Source: Trypanosoma brucei (lineage: Eukaryota). Taken from it: a DNA stretch of 64,000 nucleotides. Made by a program: the position numbers and the translations under genes. The stretch lies in contig CM000208.1 of assembly GCA_000002445.1 (NCBI GenBank), positions 3,360,001-3,424,000 on the forward strand. The letters run 5' to 3'. Below are positions 2,589 through 12,446 of the stretch, piece by piece. Each line of letters starts with the position of its first letter. The first letter of the stretch is position 1. The notes beneath the pieces are model-generated. The model made no database searches. It saw only the letters and a list, made by a program, of their open reading frames with translations, and was not told the origin of the DNA.

Positions 2589-2616
2589 ATATATATATAT
2601 ATATATATATATATAT
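2589..2616. repeat. (AT)14 microsatellite
   Basis: Perfect AT dinucleotide run read directly at 2589-2616. Confidence 0.9.
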
Positions 2617-2712
2617 CAAATAAACAGTCAAATAGGGATATTATTGCTTTAAATTTAAATAGCAAGAACCAAAAGAAAAATCAAAAAGGGGGCGAAGAAA
2701 GGGAGATTTCTC

Positions 2713-2939
2713 AGCAATACTCACCTCTCCCTTCCTATATTCCACTTATTTGGCACAGGATGCTCTTTTTTTAACGGCATCGCGCCACCTCAGTTTGCAT
2801 ATCCCTAACTTTCCACGCTTTCTGCGACACTTGTCCCATCGTCACATATGAATCTGAGGGGATGGCGCACGTAGTTTTTGGACATCAGTTTGTTCACCCT
2901 TATACCCTTCACTTACATGCTATATAGCTTCAATGCATC
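2713..2939. repeat. 227-bp direct repeat, copy 1 (downstream flank of pyruvate kinase)
   Basis: agcaatactcacctctcccttcctatattccacttatttggcacagg...cttcaatgcatc is near-identical to 5137..5362. The only difference is one T in a T-run. Confidence 0.9.
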
Positions 2940-3141
2940 CCCCCCGGTTTATCATCTTACATACAAATATATTCCCCATTCTTAAAGTTTATCCCTCCCA
3001 GATCAATAATATCCCCTAATATTAATTCTTCCTCCATTTTACTCTTTTCCTCCCGAATAAAATAAATTGCTGCAGTGACCAGCATATCGCATTTTTTTTT
3101 TCATTAACCCCTCATTACATTGCTCACCCACACACCAATGC

Positions 3142-4641
3142 TTAAGGAAGATAGATGAGGCGAGTTTGGTTCGGGTACCCCTTCACAGAGTGGTCGGCAT
3201 GCACGACAACCACCACGTCTCCAGTGCTGGCATATTTCTCCTTCTTCGCAAAATCCAAACCGAGTTTCACGCGCTTTTCCTTATCCTTGTCCTCACCACT
3301 CTTTGCGGCGTCGTAGAAAACACTCACGACGGAGCGCGTCACGTTGAGTTGACGGCACGTTTGCAGACGTGTGGTGACACAAATGATGGGGCAGTTCGGG
3401 CGGTACTTGCTGATGAGGCGAGCACTTCGGCCCGTGTTGCTTAGCACGAGCATTGCCTTGGCTTGTACCTCAAATGCAGAGGCGACGGCGCTGCTGCAAA
3501 CGGCCTCTTCGGGGCACATGGGGATTTTCTGCAGGTTCTTAATGCTGTTGAACATAACAGTATCGTGCGTTGCGCTCTGCGCCTCGACACAGATGCGAGC
3601 CATGTACTGTACCACTTCGTTGGGGTACTTCCCTTTGGCCGTTTCACCGGAAAGCATGACACAGTCGGCTCCGTTGAGAACAGCATTGGCAACATCGGAT
3701 ACTTCGGCACGTGTGGGGCGGGGGTTTGACGTCATGCTCTCGAGCATTTGCGTGGCACAGATGACAGGTTTGCCCACCACGTTGCACTTGCTGATGATGC
3801 ACATCTGCGCCACACACACCTTCTCGGCGGGGATCTCGACGCCAAGATCACCACGAGCAACCATAATGCCATTGCTCGCTTCAATGATGGAGTCAATGTT
3901 CTGCACACCCTGGTGGTTTTCAATCTTGGAAATGATAAGGATGTCTTTTCCCTTCTCACCGAGGGCGGCGCGCACCTCACGAACCTGCTCAGCCGTGCGG
4001 ATGAACGAGGCAAAAATCATATCAACACCTTGTGCCACACCGAACTCCAAGTCCTTGCGGTCCTTCTCGGAAACGGCGGGCAGATCCACCTCACAACCTG
4101 GGAGGTTGATACCCCTGCGGTCGGTCAGGCGGTGGTGATTGTTCACGTGGCACTTCAGCGTCCGATCGTCTTCCTTGCTCACCACGCGGAGAGTCATCAC
4201 ACCGTCGTCAACATAAATGGAACCGCCCACGGGCACTGCCTTCGTCAGTTGTGGGTAGTCGATATAGAACTTTTCCTTTGTGCCAACCTTCTCATAGGCG
4301 GGATCGGTAGTGACACACACGATGTCACCAGGGGCGAAGCTCACCTCACCATCCTTGAAGAGGCCTGTACGGATTTCAGGACCTTTCGTGTCCAGCGCAA
4401 TACCAATATGAAGGCCAAGTTCAGCAGCAGCTGCGCGAACGTTGTTTATCGTCGTCTGGTGGTATTCATGGGATCCATGGGAGAAGTTCATACGGGCAAC
4501 AGACATACCACTCTTCATTAGGTTTTTCAGGGCTTCAACGCTCTGTGTGCTGGGTCCGATGGTGCACACAATGCGGTTGGCACGGTGTTTGGCCACCGGC
4601 TCAAAAATGGAGAGCCCAATGTTGTGCTCTAGCTGCGACAT
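3142..4641 (-). CDS. PYK1: Pyruvate kinase
   Basis: 499 aa. The N-terminus MSQLEHNIGLSIFEPVAKHRANRIVCTIGPSTQSVEALKNLMKSGMSVARMNFSHGSHEYH matches trypanosomatid PYK. PK-family motifs are present (MVARGDLG, GETAKGKYP, the effector-site region). Full-length ORF. Confidence 0.95.
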   Translation of the reverse strand: MSQLEHNIGLSIFEPVAKHRANRIVCTIGPSTQSVEALKNLMKSGMSVARMNFSHGSHEYHQTTINNVRAAAAELGLHIGIALDTKGPEIRTGLFKDGEVSFAPGDIVCVTTDPAYEKVGTKEKFYIDYPQLTKAVPVGGSIYVDDGVMTLRVVSKEDDRTLKCHVNNHHRLTDRRGINLPGCEVDLPAVSEKDRKDLEFGVAQGVDMIFASFIRTAEQVREVRAALGEKGKDILIISKIENHQGVQNIDSIIEASNGIMVARGDLGVEIPAEKVCVAQMCIISKCNVVGKPVICATQMLESMTSNPRPTRAEVSDVANAVLNGADCVMLSGETAKGKYPNEVVQYMARICVEAQSATHDTVMFNSIKNLQKIPMCPEEAVCSSAVASAFEVQAKAMLVLSNTGRSARLISKYRPNCPIICVTTRLQTCRQLNVTRSVVSVFYDAAKSGEDKDKEKRVKLGLDFAKKEKYASTGDVVVVVHADHSVKGYPNQTRLIYLP

Positions 4642-5136
4642 GGACTCTTCGGAATAAATCTGTTTTGTCTGAATTGTTCCTTTATTAGGTGATAATTAGT
4701 ATACCACAATTTGTTCTTTTTTTCCTTGGTTATTTGTGTTTAGATGCTTTATGCTGCTGTAGTTCTATATGAAGAAAAGGGTAGAAAGCAAACGAAAATG
4801 TAATTGTGGAAGTGGAGGGTACCAATCCTTTTCTTTACTTTTTTACGTTTAAAACCCTCAGTGTAACTTGTCGCTAGATCCATTCGTCGTTGATTGACTG
4901 TTGATGAGTTGGGAGTTAACCCATCAACAGTCACAAGCTCCACGGAAGGAAGGAGCAAGAAGGTGGAGGAGGAGATGTTTCACTTACTCAGCTACGTGTT
5001 GACAGCGAAAGGGAGTCCATTTCCTCCCTATCCCATACCTAAACTGACGCAGCGGTTTTGAGCAACAGGAAAACTGTTGTGCAGCAACAAAAAGGCACAT
5101 TACAGAGGATGGGGAGCGAAGAGTGGGAGGTCGCTG

Positions 5137-5362
5137 AGCAATACTCACCTCTCCCTTCCTATATTCCACTTATTTGGCACAGGATGCTCTTTTTTTAACG
5201 GCATCGCGCCACCTCAGTTTGCATATCCCTAACTTTCCACGCTTTCTGCGACACTTGTCCCATCGTCACATATGAATCTGAGGGGATGGCGCACGTAGTT
5301 TTGGACATCAGTTTGTTCACCCTTATACCCTTCACTTACATGCTATATAGCTTCAATGCATC
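5137..5362. repeat. 227-bp direct repeat, copy 2 (upstream flank of pyruvate kinase)
   Basis: Near-identical to 2713..2939. The two copies bracket the PYK CDS in direct orientation. Confidence 0.9.
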
Positions 5363-5910
5363 GTTTCCTTCCATCAATTCTACAACATGATTAACTAGAG
5401 AAATTATATATAGTAGCGAAGGTACACCACAAGGAGACAAAGGGCGTGCACAAGAGCAAAGTTAAAAAGAAGGCAAGCTCCTTTCCTGTTATTTTTTGTC
5501 GTGTTGGTATGGACCTGTAAATGGCCCTGCTTTAAGCACGGTGCAGGTGCCGCATGCTCACCCACGCTGCATTAGTGGCACCTTCTCACTAACCAGTTGA
5601 TTGTTATACGCCCCAATAATATTCAACGTGATATTCTTTTTTCCTCCGCATTCTTCCCCGCCACTTACCCCCCCCCTTTACTCCGCTGCGCTTTCTGGCC
5701 CTAACCCTGCTGCTTTTTCCCTTTCCCTTCCCTTCCATTTCCTTTACTTTTTTGTCCTCTCTAGACTCTTTTCCATCTCCATACGAGTCACCTTCCGCCT
5801 TGACCGCGCGGACCGCGTGCGCGGTTTGTTGATAGAAAGGGGTAGTTAAAACGTGTACAGGACGAGAAAAGCATGGGACCAGCAACATCCCTACCTCACG
5901 ACACAATTAT

Positions 5911-7350
5911 TTACGCAAAATCCTCCCCCTCTCCCTCATTGGTTTCATCTTCTTTAGCGACTGCCTCTTCCTCACCTTCTTGCTCTTTCTTCTCCTCATC
6001 CTCCTCGTCATCGCTGGAGAGTTCTGGTTCGCCTGTTTTGATGTGACTGGAGTACTCCTTCAGTTTGGCACGGATATTTTCCATGATTCCACCAATGTCT
6101 TCCAGGAACCTCGGTGGCTGCTCGTCAACAAGCTTGAACAATTCCAACTTCTCTTCACTATGCTTGATGACTCGCGGTTTCGGCGCCGAATCCCTCTTTG
6201 CTTTATTGGCTTGTTGCTTCTGCTTCTTGCTGTCGCCTCCGTTCTGATGACTCATGCCATCGTTCAAGACCACGGCACCTTCTGGGGCAAACTCCGCTGG
6301 GTCAAAGTTTGCCGCTGCCTCCCTCCTGGCCCGCTCCTCATTCTCGCGTTGAACCATAATCTTTTGGTCCCTCAAATACTGTAGAAGGGTGTCGCATGCC
6401 GCGATTTCCACCTCGTATGGGTTCATGCGACGCAGCGCACGCTCACGCTTCTCCGCCAACTTGGGGGCATTCTTTCGTTCCAGGAACCTGCGGTGGCGTT
6501 CCTTGCGCACTTCCTCCATTTTGGCCATGTGCTTAGCGCGGGCTTCATCACACCACGACTTCCACACCTCCATTGCCTTCTGGAAGTCCTCAGAAAGTGC
6601 GTTCATTTCCTTGGTAATACTGGTGATCTTTGCGCTGATCTCATCACACTTTTTGAATACTTCCTGCCGATTCGCCCCAGTGCTCCTCATTTTGTCATCT
6701 TTCTCCATTTTGGTTGATCGTTGTCCCTTGTATTCTTCATTGAGACCCCGAATGCGCTCGTTAATTTCTTGGATCTCACGTTGCAACGTCGCCTCGCAGT
6801 GCTTTGCCTCCGCGATGGCCTCGGAAACAGGCTGCAGCTCCTGCAAGTACCGTTTAGCATCCTCAAGTTGGCCTATTTGTCGCATGATGCGCTTCTCGGC
6901 GGCGAGTCCACCGCCACTTGTCTCCATTTTTTTCGTCATGTACTCGATGGCCTCGTCGAACTCCTCCACGCTTTTAAAGCCGCCCAGGTCATCTGTCAGA
7001 GAGCGGAGTTTCTTCACGTACTCGTCGTGTTTCTTCCTTACTTCAATAATCTCCTCTGACTTTTTGGAGCGCATTTCTTGTTCAGCCTTCCGTTTGTCAT
7101 CAAGCTCCTTGAGCCTCTGTCGGATCTCGTCGCGCTCCTTGTCAGGCTCACTTTTTGGTCCCAACGAAGCACGTAGCTCCTTGATTTGGGCGATAAGAGC
7201 CCCTTTCTCCTGCGAAAGTGCTTTCATCTTGGTTCGGTGCTCCATTACATCTGGTCTCGGAGGCGCCCCCGGAGCTGTCATCCACCGCGGTTGAGGACGC
7301 CTTTCCGTCGGCGCGGGCGCAGCTTCAGGTGCCGTCTCTGTCTTGCTCAT
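5911..7350 (-). CDS. Conserved coiled-coil protein (479 aa), hypothetical
   Basis: Long minus-strand ORF rich in E/K/R/L heptads with an acidic C-terminal tail (DDEEDEEKKEQEGEEE). No catalytic motifs recognised. Confidence 0.6.
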   Translation of the reverse strand: MSKTETAPEAAPAPTERRPQPRWMTAPGAPPRPDVMEHRTKMKALSQEKGALIAQIKELRASLGPKSEPDKERDEIRQRLKELDDKRKAEQEMRSKKSEEIIEVRKKHDEYVKKLRSLTDDLGGFKSVEEFDEAIEYMTKKMETSGGGLAAEKRIMRQIGQLEDAKRYLQELQPVSEAIAEAKHCEATLQREIQEINERIRGLNEEYKGQRSTKMEKDDKMRSTGANRQEVFKKCDEISAKITSITKEMNALSEDFQKAMEVWKSWCDEARAKHMAKMEEVRKERHRRFLERKNAPKLAEKRERALRRMNPYEVEIAACDTLLQYLRDQKIMVQRENEERARREAAANFDPAEFAPEGAVVLNDGMSHQNGGDSKKQKQQANKAKRDSAPKPRVIKHSEEKLELFKLVDEQPPRFLEDIGGIMENIRAKLKEYSSHIKTGEPELSSDDEEDEEKKEQEGEEEAVAKEDETNEGEGEDFA

Positions 7351-8210
7351 TGCTGCTGATGCTTTTTGGCAGAACCTTTCCCCCTTGGTACACTAATCGT
7401 GCAAATTAATGAGGCAACTTCCTCAATCTAATTATATTATTCTTATTTTGTTCCTTTTTCCACTCTTACAACGTATTCCCTTATTGTTGTCAATTAATCG
7501 CCTCTCCAATGCAACTTTAGCCAACTCTCTGCCCCCTTTGAAATTCCTTGCTATTGTTGTCTAAACAGAGTTATTAGTTGACCAAGAGAAGAGGCACTCT
7601 GATTCGTGGGAGGTGAGCAAAAGCGCATACAGAGCAGAAAAAAAAAGGGAGACAATACCCCTAGAGGATGCCAAACACATGGCGCTATCGTCGGCGAGCT
7701 TTTGCGTTGCTGCGCCACGTATTGGCCCGCATAAATTCAAATGGTGGCAATAGGAGTTGTGCGAGTACACATGCGACTACCATAAACTTGATGACGCAGC
7801 CGGTGGAGTTTTCCTGCTTCCCCCTCTCCTCTTCCTTTGAGAATTCCCCTGAGTTGCCAAACCGATCCACTGGTGTGCACCTCCGGATGCGGAGCGGTGC
7901 AAAGCAGCCCAAACAAAAGACATGTGTACAGAAATAAAAGGGTAATGCCCACCCCCGCCTCGCCCCCACATTACATAAATCGGGAACATATTCTTTTCCT
8001 TCTTCTTCATGTACTCCAGCATGTAAATAAATGGATGTGCTTACGTATTCTTTCGCTGAGAGTGTGCTGCAAAGGGCATCTAAAGGGGCAGATGTGATTA
8101 TATCCGCTTCCTCAAACAAATTTTAGTGGAGGTGGCGGAAACATAACGAACATGTTCCGTCCCCTTCCACACCCCAGGAACAGCGTTCCCATCAAGTTCA
8201 CAATTCATAA

Positions 8211-8430
8211 GGTGAAAAATATTCCCCTTGCATTTTACCTTTGCTTTTAATCAGGCACCATAAATGTTATTTGGAACTCCATTTAGTATTATAATTCTTC
8301 CCTTTTCCTTCATGCAGATTAGTGTGGCACAAAATATTTGTACAGAAAAAGTCCAAAGATACCTCCAAACAATGGAATAACTAGTGGAACCCAGAAATAA
8401 TAATTTGCATGTGAAAACACCTTCCCACCA
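8211..8430 (-). pseudogene. Relic of an aquaglyceroporin 3' end (last 36 codons, stop and about 108 nt of 3'UTR)
   Basis: The 220 bp is about 97% identical to 9351..9570 (AQP3 3'UTR plus C-terminal coding). The reverse-complement of 8319..8428 reads [36 protein letters not shown]. Homology stops abruptly at 8430 and there is no upstream ORF. Confidence 0.8.
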
Positions 8431-9050
8431 AAGTGAATGGTCTCCGTGAGTGGGTAAGAAACTTCCTCTCAGGGTCCCTATCCATCGTGCTGACGAAAAT
8501 TACGAAAATAAACGAAACCTTCAATGTAATATTTACTGGTTAAACTGGCTGCCGTTTTCTCTTTTCCCACGCGAATTCGGAAGTCGCTCTCCACCTCCCT
8601 TTGTTTGTGTGGAGGAGCTCCAGGTATCAAACAAAGTAAAAATAAAGAAAGCTCATTAAAATCTATAATAACAATCAAATATTCCCCAATAGAATGCACC
8701 ACCACCTCATTTGTAAAACAGAAGTGAATCATCAAGTGCGAATTTGCCCCGGCATACTATCCCTCACCTCCCAACACAACAAAATCAGCGGTTAAAACAC
8801 ACATGCAAACAGCTGTGGGATGAAGAGAAGTAAAGTGCAACAACAAAGAGATGTACGACATGAGTGAAGTAAACCGAGATTCACCTTAACGTCTTCCCAA
8901 AATATGTATTTAAATGACGTTAGGGGTGCAACGAGGGATTATCCAAGTGGTTCAGCGCTATTCAGTGACAAATTTTATGTGTGTATTCTTCCATTGGTGC
9001 CCTGAGCGAACATAATCGGGGTGGCTCGAAAAAAAAAAACACATGAACAA

Positions 9051-9095: not shown

Positions 9096-9350
9096 AGAAA
9101 AAAGTAAACATGAGATTAGTGATGGGGAAAGACTTTCTTACGCTGCTGAAGGGAGCAACAGCACCTATGGATTGCGCCATCTGTTCACCTTATTTATCTC
9201 TAAAAATTAGTGTCCCCTTCGATCATTGTACTTAATACAATGAAACAAAACGGCAACCAGAAAGGCAGCTCATGCACTCAAAAACAGGAAAAGAATCGTT
9301 TTTTTTTAAACACGAATTAAAATAACGCTTTTTATATACTTAGTACATAC

Positions 9351-10650
9351 GGTGAAAAATATTCCCCTTGCGTTTTACCTTTGCTTTTAACCAGGCACCA
9401 TAAATGTTATTTGGAATTCCATTTAGTATTATAATTCTTCCTTTTTCCTTCATGCAGATTAGTGTGGCACAAAATATTTGTACAGAAAAAGTCCAAAGAT
9501 ACCTCCAAACAATGGAATAACTAGTGGAACCCAGAAATAATAATTTGCATGTGAAAACACCTTCCCACCATAAAGAAAAGAAGAGAAGACCCTGGGACCG
9601 AAGTCACGAGCCGGATTTATTGCGTAACCCGTTGAGTAACCGATGTTATTGCCAATGGCGAAGACAAGAGCACCAACTGCCAACGGCTCGTGTCCCTTGG
9701 CAGGAGAGTTATTGGGGTCGAAGATACCGCAGACACAGAACAATAGCATCGCCGTACATATAAACTCACCAAAGATACAAGAAAATAGACCATTTGAATC
9801 CCTTGGGTAGGTGCTGAACACACCTGCGGTCCCCTTTTCACCGAAGGCAATCAACTCACCACCACCATGCGCCTTCAGGAGATCAGCAAACACTCCGTAA
9901 GCGCAGGCAGCACCAAGAAAGGCACCGAGCATCTGCGCCGCGATGTAGCCGGGGACTTTTCTCCAAGGGAAATCACCGAAAACCGCATTGCCAACGGTGA
10001 CGGCGGGATTAAGGTGGCCGCTCGAGATACCCAATGAAACATACAGAGCCATCGTGACGGCAATGCCCCAACCAAGCGTAATGCTGAGGAACCCCAGTTT
10101 CCCATCAATGATAACCGTGGCGACCACACCATTACCCATAAAGAGCAGGACGAAGGTTCCCAGCAGCTCCCCCATGTAGTCGCGGTAATTTAGCCGCAGT
10201 TCCCGTGGTGCCCAAAAGTTGATGCCTCCCGGTACTTCCTCTTGAGCCTCCGCCACCTCATGTTTCCGGTTGCTACTGTCGTCGTTTCCCTGAACACGGA
10301 CCTCCACTGTTCCATCCTTATTAACCGCTTGTAGCTCCATGGGATACGCCACATTGTCTGGTTGGCTCTGCATTCTGATTTTCTGGAGCTTTTTTTTCTT
10401 GTTGCTCGAATTCAATTTTTAAATAATGTCTGATGTGCTGAAGGCGCTACCTAACAATTGTTTTTGTTTCCTCCTACACTGTTACACAAATAGTCAGCAG
10501 CGGGCGATAGAATAGGGGGAACGGGGTTTATAAGGTAGCAAAGCACCTTGCGTGACGCAAGAATGAATGTTCGGAAGTGAGGAAAGTAATATCGACAGCA
10601 TTAACAAGGAATTCCCACATGCGCATGCGTGTGCGTAGAGGAGTGAAACG
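9351..10650. repeat. Tandem duplication unit 1 (AQP3 gene with 3'UTR and 235-bp 5' flank)
   Basis: Paralogous to 11120..12446. The 5' flank 10416..10650 is identical to 12212..12446, and the first about 130 nt of CDS are identical. The 3'UTRs are about 80% identical. Confidence 0.85.
9459..10415 (-). CDS. AQP3: Aquaglyceroporin 3 (canonical NPA/NPA plus Arg filter)
   Basis: 318 aa MIP-family protein. First motif [11 protein letters not shown], second motif [11 protein letters not shown] (NPA followed by the conserved Arg). Six predicted TM segments. The N-terminal 44 aa are identical to the paralogue downstream. Confidence 0.9.
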
Positions 10651-11119
10651 AAGAGCAATATCGCTAATCGTAATTTGAATGCCTCTCCGAGGCACATCGT
10701 TGCGTGGTAACGTAAACAAATGGGATGGGGAGAGGAAAGTGAAAGAGGGTGGAAGATGTGGCAACCTACTAAGGTTCCGTCATGTATTCCCTTCCTCCAC
10801 ATTATTATTGTTATATATTTCTACCCGCTGAATAAAAATAGACAAGTGATAAAAATAAGGGATGATGAAAAGACAAACACAGCATTTACCTCTACAGGGG
10901 CACCGCACCCTCTCGGTTAAACCGCTATAAACTCCTTACAACACATCCTTATTGTTTGATCCCATTCTCTTTCTTTTATGCCCCTTAGGTTAAATTATAA
11001 TGTGACATAACAGAGCAGTTTGCCTTCGCCTTTGGAGAAGGCAAAAACTTCAACGCTCACCGTTTCACCCGCATTCTTCGGGAGAAACAAAACCTCTCTG
11101 TTATATTCTTAACTCATAT

Positions 11120-12446
11120 GGTGAAAAATGATCCCTTCGTTTTATTTTTCATCTTTCCTTTTAGCTAGGCACCATCAATGTTATTTGGAATTCCACTAAC
11201 CGTCAATACCCTTCGCCCTACCCTGGCCGATTAGTGTGGAAGAAAATATTTGTACAGAAAAAGTCCAAGGATAGCTCCAAAGAATGGAACAACTAGTGGA
11301 ACCCAGAAATAATAATTTGCATGTGAAAAAACTTCCCCCCCGAGAAGGATCGCACCGAAGACCCTGGGACCGAAATCAAGTGAGGGATTCATCGCAAGGG
11401 GAGACGCTAAGCCGAAGTTGTTGACCATGACGAAGACAAGAGCACCAATAGCTACCGTTTCGTACCCCTTGGCAGGAGAGTTATTGGGGTCAAAGATACC
11501 GCAGACACAGAGCAGTAGCACTGCGGTGGAAATGAGTTCAGCAAAAATTGGATAAAATATACCATTTCCTTCCGCGGGGTACATGGCAAACACCCACGCA
11601 ATCCCCTTTTCACCGAAGGCAATCAACTCACCACCACCATGCGCCTTCAGGAGATCAGCAAACACTCCGTAAGCGCAGGCAGCACCAAGGAAAGTGCCGA
11701 GCATCTGCGCCGCGATGTAGCCGGGGACTTTTCTCCAAGGGAAATCACCGAAAACCGCATTGCCAACGGTGACGGCAGAGTTGAGATGGCCACCGGAGAT
11801 GCCCAGTGAAACATACAGAGCCATCGTGACAGCCACACCAATACCAATCGTAAGACCGAGAAGCCCAAAATCTGGAACAAGTAGTGAGGTGATAACCGCG
11901 CCCTTAGCGATATATATGAGGACGAAGTTTCCCAGAAATTCAGCCACGTAGTCGCGGTAATTTAGCCGCAGTTCCCGTGGTGCCCAAAAGTTGATGCCTC
12001 CCACGGGTTTCTCTTGAGCCTCCGCCACCTCATGTTTTTGTACATCTGCATCCCACCGCTCATTGCTACTGTTGTCAACGTTTCCCTGAACACGGACCTC
12101 CACTGTTCCATCCTTATTAACCGCTTGTAGCTCCATGGGATACGCCACATTGTCTGGTTGGCTCTGCATTCTGATTTTCTGGAGCTTTTTTTTCTTGTTG
12201 CTCGAATTCAATTTTTAAATAATGTCTGATGTGCTGAAGGCGCTACCTAACAATTGTTTTTGTTTCCTCCTACACTGTTACACAAATAGTCAGCAGCGGG
12301 CGATAGAATAGGGGGAACGGGGTTTATAAGGTAGCAAAGCACCTTGCGTGACGCAAGAATGAATGTTCGGAAGTGAGGAAAGTAATATCGACAGCATTAA
12401 CAAGGAATTCCCACATGCGCATGCGTGTGCGTAGAGGAGTGAAACG
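11120..12446. repeat. Tandem duplication unit 2 (AQP2 gene with flanks)
   Basis: See unit 1. The offset is 1769-1796 bp; the 27-bp difference comes from 24 extra coding nt in AQP2. Confidence 0.85.
11231..12211 (-). CDS. AQP2: Aquaglyceroporin 2 (atypical NSA/NPS motifs, Arg replaced by Leu)
   Basis: 326 aa MIP-family protein. First motif [11 protein letters not shown] (NSA, at about 11774-11782). Second motif [11 protein letters not shown] (NPS plus Leu, at about 11378-11389). These are the hallmark residues of TbAQP2, the pentamidine/melarsoprol uptake channel. Confidence 0.9.

What the first reader, a model, noticed from the sequence alone, without database searches (positions are those of the whole stretch)
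2713..5362. Pyruvate kinase gene bracketed by 227-bp near-identical direct repeats, consistent with a tandem PYK array, possibly collapsed
The sequence immediately 3' of the PYK CDS (2713-2939) recurs almost perfectly 5' of it (5137-5362). The two differ by a single base. This means a 2.42-kb unit (repeat, intergenic, PYK, intergenic) is bounded by the same intergenic element. Such flank re-use is what one sees at the edges of a head-to-tail tandem gene array. T. brucei is reported to carry two nearly identical tandem PYK genes. So either one array member has been collapsed or deleted here, or the repeats are the footprint of the duplication. Either way, the pair is a ready-made substrate for copy-number change of a glycolytic enzyme.
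Basis: partly seen in the sequence, partly recalled or inferred. Interest (0 to 1): 0.5.

Follow-up and report, generated by a model that had tools for sequence, protein, structure and literature searches.

The report
Leftover of a missing pyruvate-kinase copy
The repeat is real: it is the tail of the 3' untranslated region of a second, upstream pyruvate kinase gene that other Trypanosoma brucei-group genomes have but this reference sequence (strain TREU927) lacks, so it marks a known tandem gene pair with one member missing.

Summary
Observation confirmed. Window 2713-2939 equals 5137-5362 apart from one T-run indel, with 2424-bp spacing and only two copies in 64 kb.

The window is T. b. brucei TREU927 chromosome 10. 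T. b. gambiense DAL972, T. b. equiperdum IVM-t1 and T. equiperdum OVI all carry two tandem PYK genes here, and RNA-seq contigs from a further strain fit the same structure. The assembled copies are exactly 2424 bp apart.

Relative to them, the window lacks one 2292-bp block:
- a unique 422-bp segment Z, the distal 3'UTR of the upstream gene;
- the PYK1-type gene;
- the first 201 nt of that gene's 3'UTR.

Repeat copy B is what remains of the PYK1 3'UTR, followed by the normal inter-copy spacer and the surviving PYK2-type gene.

The junction (5362|5363) has no homology or microhomology, so this is not a classic homologous collapse.

Published read depth from the original TREU927 reads gives PYK 1.57, against 0.80-0.95 for three neighbouring genes. 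Eight other datasets give about 2.0. This suggests the strain's DNA holds more PYK than the assembly shows. A heterozygous deletion allele, collapsed identical units or a misjoin would explain that; none can be excluded here.

The tandem pair is already known and interest is low. The practical point is a caveat about the reference genome.

The parts
2688..2939 (-). Repeat copy A (core 2713-2939). It is the distal part of the 3'UTR of the retained PYK gene, nt +203 to +454 after the stop. Its tail (2688-2712) carries the copy-2-type variants and leads into unique downstream sequence.
   Evidence: It is 100% identical to T. equiperdum OVI copy 2. RNA-seq contigs L004 and L005 run through the equivalent stretch as 3'UTR.
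2940..3141 (-). Proximal 201-202 nt of the PYK 3'UTR. This stretch is present once in the window. The matching stretch of the upstream copy is part of the missing block.
3142..4641 (-). Pyruvate kinase CDS, 499 aa, of the PYK2/downstream-copy type (K134, P137, V138, V154, R160). It is identical to the downstream copy of T. b. gambiense DAL972 and is the only PYK in the 64 kb.
4642..4810 (-). 5'UTR (4642-4764, 123 nt), trans-splice acceptor AG (4766-4765) and polypyrimidine tract. The duplicated unit of the two-copy strains starts at 4810.
   Evidence: Contig L004 begins with 27 nt of the spliced leader, joined at this position. Duplication boundary.
4811..5111 (-). Inter-copy spacer 'd' (301 nt). 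In two-copy strains it lies only between PYK1 and PYK2. PYK1-type mRNA extends at least 196 nt into it, to window 4916.
5112..5362 (-). Repeat copy B (core 5137-5362). It is an orphan tail of the 3'UTR of the missing upstream PYK1-type gene. Its tail (5112-5136) carries the copy-1-type variants and is contiguous with spacer d.
5362..5363 (.). Breakpoint. Here the window departs from all other Trypanozoon sources, and 2292 bp found in them (Z 422 bp, 169 bp 5' region, PYK1 1500 bp, 201 bp 3'UTR) are absent. There is no microhomology at the junction.
5363..5910 (-). Proximal 548 nt of the 3'UTR of the upstream gene ('nuclear segregation protein', Tb927.10.14150). In other strains this 3'UTR continues 361 nt into Z; here it abuts repeat copy B.
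   Evidence: RNA-seq contigs L009, L010 and L013.
5911..7350 (-). Upstream gene, 479 aa, identical to EAN78783/XP_827895 (TREU927) and to T. equiperdum OVI.

Best explanation
The 227-bp repeat is not an independent element. It is the distal part of the PYK 3'UTR, and it occurs twice because T. brucei-group trypanosomes carry a tandem PYK1-PYK2 pair.

In that pair the duplicated unit comprises the polypyrimidine tract, 5'UTR, CDS and the first 454 nt of 3'UTR. The two units are separated by a 301-bp spacer, giving a period of 2424 bp.

The window is the TREU927 reference, chromosome 10. It lacks one contiguous 2292-bp block present in the other genomes. That block holds the end of the upstream gene's 3'UTR (Z), the PYK1-type gene and the first 201 nt of its 3'UTR. 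What remains upstream of the surviving PYK2-type gene is the tail of the PYK1 3'UTR (copy B) plus the spacer. This is why the gene looks bracketed by direct repeats.

Shown: the anatomy, the comparison with four other sources, the transcript ends and the blunt junction.

Inferred, from published depth: TREU927 DNA still contains about 1.5-2 PYK coding sequences per haploid genome, so the reference under-represents the locus. My split is:
- 0.35: the reference captured a deletion-bearing haplotype while the other haplotype keeps two copies.
- 0.30: a misjoin in the assembly.
- 0.15: a deletion allele later re-amplified into identical units that collapsed in assembly.
- 0.12: a true homozygous single copy.

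Inferred consequences if the junction is real:
- The upstream gene's mRNA would end at the old PYK1 poly(A) region and carry a chimeric 3'UTR.
- The two roughly 250-bp direct repeats would allow loss or re-duplication of PYK by homologous recombination.
For: - Strain identity. Eight of eight window proteins match TREU927 GenBank entries exactly, and three of them are unique to that strain.
- Two tandem PYK genes 2424 bp apart in DAL972. IVM-t1 is colinear with DAL972 throughout.
- Colinearity. Window 12344-5363 aligns to L001 1-6985, and window 5362-2 aligns to L001 9278-14639.
- T. equiperdum OVI is 99.97% identical to the window up to 5363. It then carries 424 bp of Z that are absent from the window, and then runs 100% identical into PYK. 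Its second contig shows R-tail|spacer|PYK|3'UTR|R|SRP19.
- Z is unique and absent from the whole window.
- Transcript evidence. The upstream gene's 3'UTR runs 361 nt into Z. PYK1 mRNA starts at a spliced-leader junction and runs through R into the spacer.
- The window copy has copy-2 variants at both diagnostic clusters.
- One PYK lies at the syntenic site in T. cruzi long-read assemblies, and one in the T. vivax contig as far as it reaches.
- Read depth (PMC4696300, Additional file 2). PYK1 is 1.57 in the original TREU927 reads. Neighbouring genes .14180.14190 and .14210 are 0.80-0.95. Eight usable non-reference datasets give 1.9-2.4. Other genes that are about two-copy elsewhere give 1.3-2.4 in the TREU927 reads.
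Against: - No TREU927 reads could be examined here, so real deletion and assembly error cannot be separated.
- The TREU927 depth column is noisy. Most genes at 1.57-1.60 in that column are single-copy in other strains, including the nearby Tb927.10.14030.
- The junction has no microhomology. That is unusual for a natural deletion in an organism thought to rely on microhomology-mediated joining (my own knowledge). It is equally unlike a homologous assembly collapse.
- The closest relative, OVI, is 100% identical in R and the spacer and keeps both copies. Any real deletion must therefore be very recent.
Confidence: 0.85

Rival explanations
1. True homozygous single-copy state. TREU927 really lost Z, PYK1 and 201 nt of 3'UTR on both homologues, and the reference is correct.
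For: The junction is non-homologous, which repeat collapse does not produce. PMC4696300 states that TREU927 generally has fewer copies of repeated genes. The assembled sequence is internally consistent, with an intact ORF and an intact splice region.
Against: Original TREU927 reads give PYK 1.57 against 0.80-0.95 for three neighbouring genes. That is the same PYK-to-neighbour ratio as in two-copy strains. The near-identical relative OVI has both copies.
Confidence: 0.12
2. Assembly misjoin. TREU927 has the same two-copy structure as OVI, and two contig ends (one ending in X, one starting in the PYK1 3'UTR) were joined without the intervening 2.3 kb.
For: Read depth looks two-copy. The junction is blunt with no microhomology. 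OVI is essentially identical in sequence yet two-copy. Tandem arrays such as HSP70 are stated to have been eliminated during TREU927 assembly (PMC8459984).
Against: A collapse of near-identical copies should join at homologous positions and keep Z. A zero-length butt join with no run of N is unusual in a finished chromosome. No reads were available to test this.
Confidence: 0.3
3. A deletion allele later re-expanded. After the deletion, unequal exchange between the two R copies rebuilt two or more identical 2424-bp units (all PYK2-type). The assembler then collapsed these to the 1.1 units seen.
For: The window layout (R, unit, R) is exactly what collapse of identical units leaves. Depth of 1.57 matches the two-copy class. 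The two R copies share three lineage-specific bases and differ by only one indel.
Against: It needs two successive events. The shared R alleles are equally explained by gene conversion, which is evident in other strains. There is no direct evidence.
Confidence: 0.15
4. The 227-bp element is a dispersed repeat or an independent functional element (regulatory element or non-coding RNA) that happens to flank PYK.
For: None found.
Against: There are only two copies in 64 kb. In every locus held it occurs only in the PYK 3'UTR context. There is no Rfam match. It is part of a longer duplicated unit in other strains.
Confidence: 0.01
5. The window shows an ancestral or intermediate state, with the flank duplicated before the gene, and the two-copy structure arose from it.
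For: A single PYK is the state in T. cruzi, and T. vivax shows one PYK as far as its contig reaches.
Against: The window carries the inter-copy spacer and the copy-1-type R tail, which make sense only as parts of a two-copy array. Deriving the two-copy form from the window would need a precise insertion of Z plus a gene copy between X and R. Four other Trypanozoon sources agree on X|Z.
Confidence: 0.02

Closest known systems
Tandemly linked PYK1/PYK2 genes of Trypanosoma brucei (Allert et al. 1991, Eur J Biochem 200:19, reference as listed in PMC7175467; UniProt P30615 and P30616)
   Same: It is the same locus and the same gene. The 2424-bp repeat period equals the inter-copy distance in assembled two-copy genomes. 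The window copy carries the PYK2-type residues K134/P137/V138.
   Different: Only one CDS is present in this sequence. The PYK1-type member and 422 bp of unique upstream sequence are missing, leaving an orphan 3'UTR tail.
[quoted passage not shown]
   Same: The reference shows fewer copies than read depth suggests. PYK reads 1.57 against about 0.85 for neighbouring genes in the original reads (PMC4696300).
   Different: The junction here is not between homologous positions of two units. Unique sequence Z is lost and the spacer is kept, so ordinary collapse does not explain it.
Recombination between repeated sequences causing gene loss or dosage change in T. brucei (FRDg/FRDm2 deletion, PMC8065229). 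The adjacent AQP2/AQP3 pair is known, from my own knowledge, to form chimeras and deletions.
   Same: Direct repeats flanking a metabolic gene are potential substrates for deletion or amplification. The locus lies about 4.8 kb from the AQP3/AQP2 tandem pair.
   Different: No recombination event between the two R copies is documented. The event that created the present layout was not homology-mediated.

Membership tests
T. brucei tandem PYK1-PYK2 array | Two head-to-tail PYK coding sequences | tested here: not met
   tblastn finds a single PYK in the 64-kb window. DAL972 and IVM-t1 have two.
T. brucei tandem PYK1-PYK2 array | Unit period and inter-copy spacer (R + 301-bp d) as in two-copy genomes | tested here: met
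   Repeat spacing is 2424 bp, equal to the copy spacing in DAL972. Window 5362-4811 is colinear with L001 9278-9831.
T. brucei tandem PYK1-PYK2 array | Presence of the PYK1-type paralogue (N134, R137, P138) | tested here: not met
   The window copy is PYK2-type at both variant clusters.
Homologous collapse of a tandem repeat in an assembly | Join at homologous positions, with the unique flanks of the array retained | tested here: not met
   Unique Z is absent, the spacer d is retained, and the X|R junction shares no homology.
Homologous collapse of a tandem repeat in an assembly | Excess read depth over the collapsed unit | not testable with these tools
   No reads were available. A published table gives PYK 1.57 against 0.80-0.95 for neighbouring genes in the original TREU927 reads, but that column is noisy.
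Microhomology-mediated deletion | Shared bases (a few nt or more) at the two breakpoints | tested here: not met
   The three junction sequences are ...GGAAAC|ATCAATGC...GGGGGG|GATGCATT and ...GGAAAC|GATGCATT. They share 0 nt at the breakpoint.
Dispersed repeat or mobile element | Many copies in unrelated contexts | tested here: not met
   There are two copies in the window, and in all fetched loci the element occurs only in the PYK 3'UTR context. A whole-genome search was not possible.
Pyruvate kinase (Pfam PK + PK_C) | Barrel and C-terminal domains above the Pfam thresholds, and identity to solved TbPYK | tested here: met
   PF00224 scores 489 bits and PF02887 scores 95 bits. The best PDB match is 4HYV, 1107 bits over residues 1-499.

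The most novel reading that the evidence does not exclude
TREU927 carries a genuine, very recent 2.29-kb deletion allele, made without microhomology. It removes the PYK1-type gene and the poly(A) region of the upstream 'nuclear segregation protein' gene. That gene would then acquire the distal PYK1 3'UTR as a chimeric 3'UTR. PYK dosage would be maintained either by the other haplotype or by re-amplification between the two R repeats. This would be a natural example of 3'UTR swapping and dosage compensation at a glycolytic gene, in an organism that controls expression post-transcriptionally.
Probability: 0.45. Interest if true: 0.35.

Novelty: already known. Interest (0 to 1): 0.22.

Why it matters
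The tandem PYK pair has been known since 1991, so the biology is not new. The practical point concerns TREU927, the coordinate system for almost all T. brucei functional genomics. At this locus the reference lacks the PYK1-type gene and 422 bp of the 3'UTR of Tb927.10.14150.

Consequences:
- Reads from two genes pile onto one gene model, so expression and copy-number values for PYK are distorted.
- Variant calls at codons 134-160 will look heterozygous.
- The annotated 3'UTR of the upstream gene is probably wrong for most strains.
- Knock-out or tagging designs based on the reference will miss a copy.

If the junction is real, it is also a small natural experiment in 3'UTR exchange.

Tried and rejected
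- I looked up a 34-aa ORF spanning the X|R junction (5286-5390) in public assemblies, to find independent contigs with that junction. Nothing is on record.
- I looked up the 351-aa TREU927 GenBank PYK1 model. It is not in the position index.
- The exact window PYK and the exact upstream protein retrieved only DAL972 and OVI respectively. No TREU927 resequencing data could be reached.
- I tested whether Z is a diverged copy of R plus spacer, or whether the spacer resembles the sequence downstream of copy A. All scores fell within the shuffle range.
- I searched for microhomology at the breakpoints and found none.
- Rfam and tandem-repeat scans found nothing relevant.
- Literature searches for PYK copy number in TREU927 found no explicit statement.
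- The S2 table of PMC8459984, which includes TREU927 copy numbers, is truncated in the held copy and lacks the gene.
- PMC11739655 concerns strain 427 and does not help.
- The look-up only re-fetched the DAL972 locus.
Full report
**1. Observation**

The pyruvate kinase ORF lies on the minus strand at 3142-4641 (499 aa).

The repeat finder and a MAFFT alignment show that 2713-2939 and 5137-5362 are identical except for one base of a T run (T5 versus T4). Similarity continues more weakly for about 25 nt (2688-2712 / 5112-5136). It ends abruptly on the other side at 2939|2940 and 5362|5363. Spacing is 2424/2423 bp.

Long probes from the element hit only these two sites in 64 kb, with none expected by chance. 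In the direction of transcription, copy A starts 202 nt after the stop codon and copy B ends 470 nt before the ATG. The single difference is an indel.

**2. Source of the window**

Eight window ORFs are exact matches to GenBank proteins EAN78781-EAN78800 of T. brucei brucei TREU927 chromosome 10. Three of them occur in that strain only.

The gene order, all on the minus strand, is:
- SSNA1
- SRP19 (1398-1856)
- PYK
- a 479-aa 'nuclear segregation protein' (5911-7350, Tb927.10.14150)
- AQP3 (9459-10373)
- AQP2 (11231-12169)

Supporting calls are 2, 43 and 69. GenBank lists one PYK between SRP19 and the 479-aa gene.

**3. What other genomes have at this locus**

The exact PYK protein led to T. 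b. gambiense DAL972 chromosome 10 (L001). DAL972 has two tandem PYK genes whose starts are 2424 bp apart, the same figure as the repeat spacing.

blastn shows window 12344-5363 colinear with L001 1-6985, and window 5362-2 colinear with L001 9278-14639. L001 6986-9277 (2292 bp) therefore has no counterpart in the window. That block consists of:
- a unique 422-bp segment (Z);
- 169 bp of 5' region;
- the upstream PYK copy (1500 bp);
- the first 201 nt after its stop codon.

The chromosome-level assembly of T. b. equiperdum IVM-t1 (L002) is colinear with DAL972 throughout.

T. equiperdum OVI is nearly identical to the window: 99.97% upstream of the junction, and 100% in the repeat and in the spacer. 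One OVI contig reads X|Z|PYK-start. Another reads R-tail|spacer|PYK|3'UTR|R|SRP19|SSNA1.

RNA-seq contigs from a further strain (ERR79291xx) show the same X|Z continuity.

Z occurs nowhere in the window. It resembles neither the repeat plus spacer nor the downstream flank.

At the syntenic site, T. cruzi long-read assemblies have a single PYK. The T. vivax contig also shows one, although it starts only 1.4 kb upstream of PYK and cannot exclude an upstream copy. The duplication is therefore absent from T. cruzi and is a derived feature of the T. brucei group. The window's layout contains pieces that exist only because of that duplication, so it is a secondary state.

**4. What the pieces are**

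- Contig L004 starts with 27 nt of the spliced leader joined to the PYK 5'UTR. This places the acceptor AG at window 4766-4765 and gives a 123-nt 5'UTR.
- The same transcript (PYK1-type protein P30615) continues 650 nt past the stop. It runs through the 201-nt proximal 3'UTR and the whole repeat, then 196 nt into the spacer, to window 4916.
- The repeat is therefore 3'UTR sequence.
- The duplicated unit of two-copy strains starts 44 nt upstream of the AG, at the polypyrimidine tract, and ends at the repeat tail.
- Transcripts of the 479-aa gene have a 909-nt 3'UTR: 551 nt of X plus 361 nt of Z. They end about 107 nt upstream of the PYK1 acceptor.

That arrangement is the usual one in trypanosomes, where polyadenylation is coupled to the downstream trans-splice site (established knowledge). 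Z is thus the distal 3'UTR and poly(A) region of the upstream gene.

**5. Which copy is retained**

Copies 1 and 2 differ in two clusters in the CDS and in the repeat tail:
- window 4240-4225 (codons 134-139);
- window 4183-4162 (codons 153-160);
- the repeat tail, 2712-2688.

The window gene is copy-2 type at both CDS clusters and is identical in protein to the DAL972 downstream copy. Copy B's tail is copy-1 type and contiguous with the spacer.

The clusters are mosaic among strains, and the two repeat copies share lineage-specific bases within each strain. Both facts indicate ongoing gene conversion.

**6. The junction**

The three sequences are:
- X|Z: ...GATGGAAGGAAAC|ATCAATGC...
- 3'UTR|R: ...GATAAACGGGGGG|GATGCATTG...
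- window: ...GATGGAAGGAAAC|GATGCATTG...

There is no shared base at the breakpoints. A homologous collapse of the two copies would give X|Z|PYK|R|Y, keeping Z and losing the spacer. The window shows the opposite. The layout therefore corresponds to a non-homologous loss of 2292 bp, either in the organism or during cloning and assembly.

**7. Is the copy missing from the strain or only from the assembly?**

No reads are available to me. PMC4696300 (Additional file 2) tabulates read depth per ORF divided by the modal value. It used 'the original reads for TREU927' and nine other datasets.

| Gene | TREU927 reads | Other datasets |
|---|---|---|
| PYK1 (Tb927.10.14140) | 1.57 | 1.90-2.40 in eight usable sets |
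| Tb927.10.14180 | 0.85 | 1.13-1.58 |
| Tb927.10.14190 | 0.80 | 1.04-1.36 |
| Tb927.10.14210 | 0.95 | 1.03-1.42 |

The PYK-to-neighbour ratio is about 1.8 in TREU927 and about 1.7 elsewhere. Other genes that are about two-copy in the other strains read 1.3-2.4 in the TREU927 column.

This favours more than one PYK CDS per haploid genome in TREU927. The caveat is that this column is noisy. Most genes at 1.57-1.60 are single-copy elsewhere, including Tb927.10.14030 nearby. The same group notes that tandem HSP70 repeats were eliminated during TREU927 assembly.

My estimates are:
- heterozygous deletion allele captured by the assembly: 0.35;
- misjoin: 0.30;
- deletion allele re-expanded into identical units and then collapsed: 0.15;
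- true homozygous single copy: 0.12.

**8. How it would work, if the sequence is real (inferred)**

The surviving gene keeps its normal upstream spacer, polypyrimidine tract and acceptor, so its processing is unchanged.

The upstream gene loses its own poly(A) region. It should be polyadenylated about 100-150 nt upstream of the PYK acceptor, near window 4870-4916. That would give a chimeric 3'UTR of roughly 1 kb, made of X, then R, then part of the spacer.

The two repeats (about 250 bp, one indel) are long enough for homologous recombination. That could excise PYK or, by unequal exchange, rebuild a tandem pair. Recombination between repeats with gene loss is documented in T. brucei (PMC8065229). 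No such event is shown here.

**9. Comparison with known systems and verdict**

This is the PYK1/PYK2 tandem locus of Allert et al. 1991 (reference listed in PMC7175467; UniProt entries). The protein is an ordinary pyruvate kinase. The element is not a dispersed repeat or a known RNA.

The finding is real and correctly interpreted in outline, and it belongs to an already known arrangement. The new detail is the exact structure of the reference at this locus. Its practical value is a warning about the TREU927 reference.

Noticed in passing
window 8206-8437 (minus strand): An orphan fragment of an aquaglyceroporin gene: the last 36 codons of AQP3 ([36 protein letters not shown]) plus 113 nt of its 3'UTR. 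It is 97% identical to 9346-9577 and lies 1140 bp downstream of AQP3, with no similarity further upstream. It looks like a relic of a third array member, analogous to the PYK repeat. It is also present in DAL972 and IVM-t1.
   Followed up: partly
window 9459-10373 and 11231-12169 (minus strand): The AQP3 (304 aa) and AQP2 (312 aa) tandem pair, with repeated flanks (families D1-D3, D6 and D7; spacing 1772 bp; 83-85% identity). A 102-aa ORF lies between them (10494-10802) and is annotated as a gene in DAL972. From my own knowledge, this is the drug-uptake locus known for chimera formation.
   Followed up: partly
window 3142-4641: The GenBank TREU927 model for this gene (EAN78782/XP_827894) is only 351 aa and starts at M149. 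The window has an intact 499-aa ORF. The truncated model begins just after the first cluster of paralogue-specific variants.
   Followed up: partly
window 4240-4225 and 4183-4162; L002 and L004: The paralogue-specific variant clusters are mosaic between strains. IVM-t1 copy 2 and the RNA-seq PYK1 each combine one cluster of each type. The two R copies share strain-specific bases. Both facts point to gene conversion between the tandem copies.
   Followed up: partly
L002 7409-9530 (position equivalent to window 3391): The upstream PYK copy of T. b. equiperdum IVM-t1 has a 1-nt deletion in the CDS, which explains why no gene was called there. It is probably a long-read consensus error rather than a pseudogene.
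   Followed up: no
window 2589-2616: A perfect (AT)14 microsatellite lies about 70 nt beyond the downstream end of repeat copy A, in the region where the retained PYK mRNA would be expected to end.
   Followed up: no
L015 and L016 (T. cruzi), L014 (T. vivax): Synteny is conserved (syntaxin 5, a 466-aa gene, a WD40 gene, an NSP homologue, PYK, SRP19, SSNA1). T. cruzi has no aquaglyceroporin genes between the WD40 gene and the NSP homologue, so the AQP2/3 pair is an insertion on the T. brucei side.
   Followed up: no
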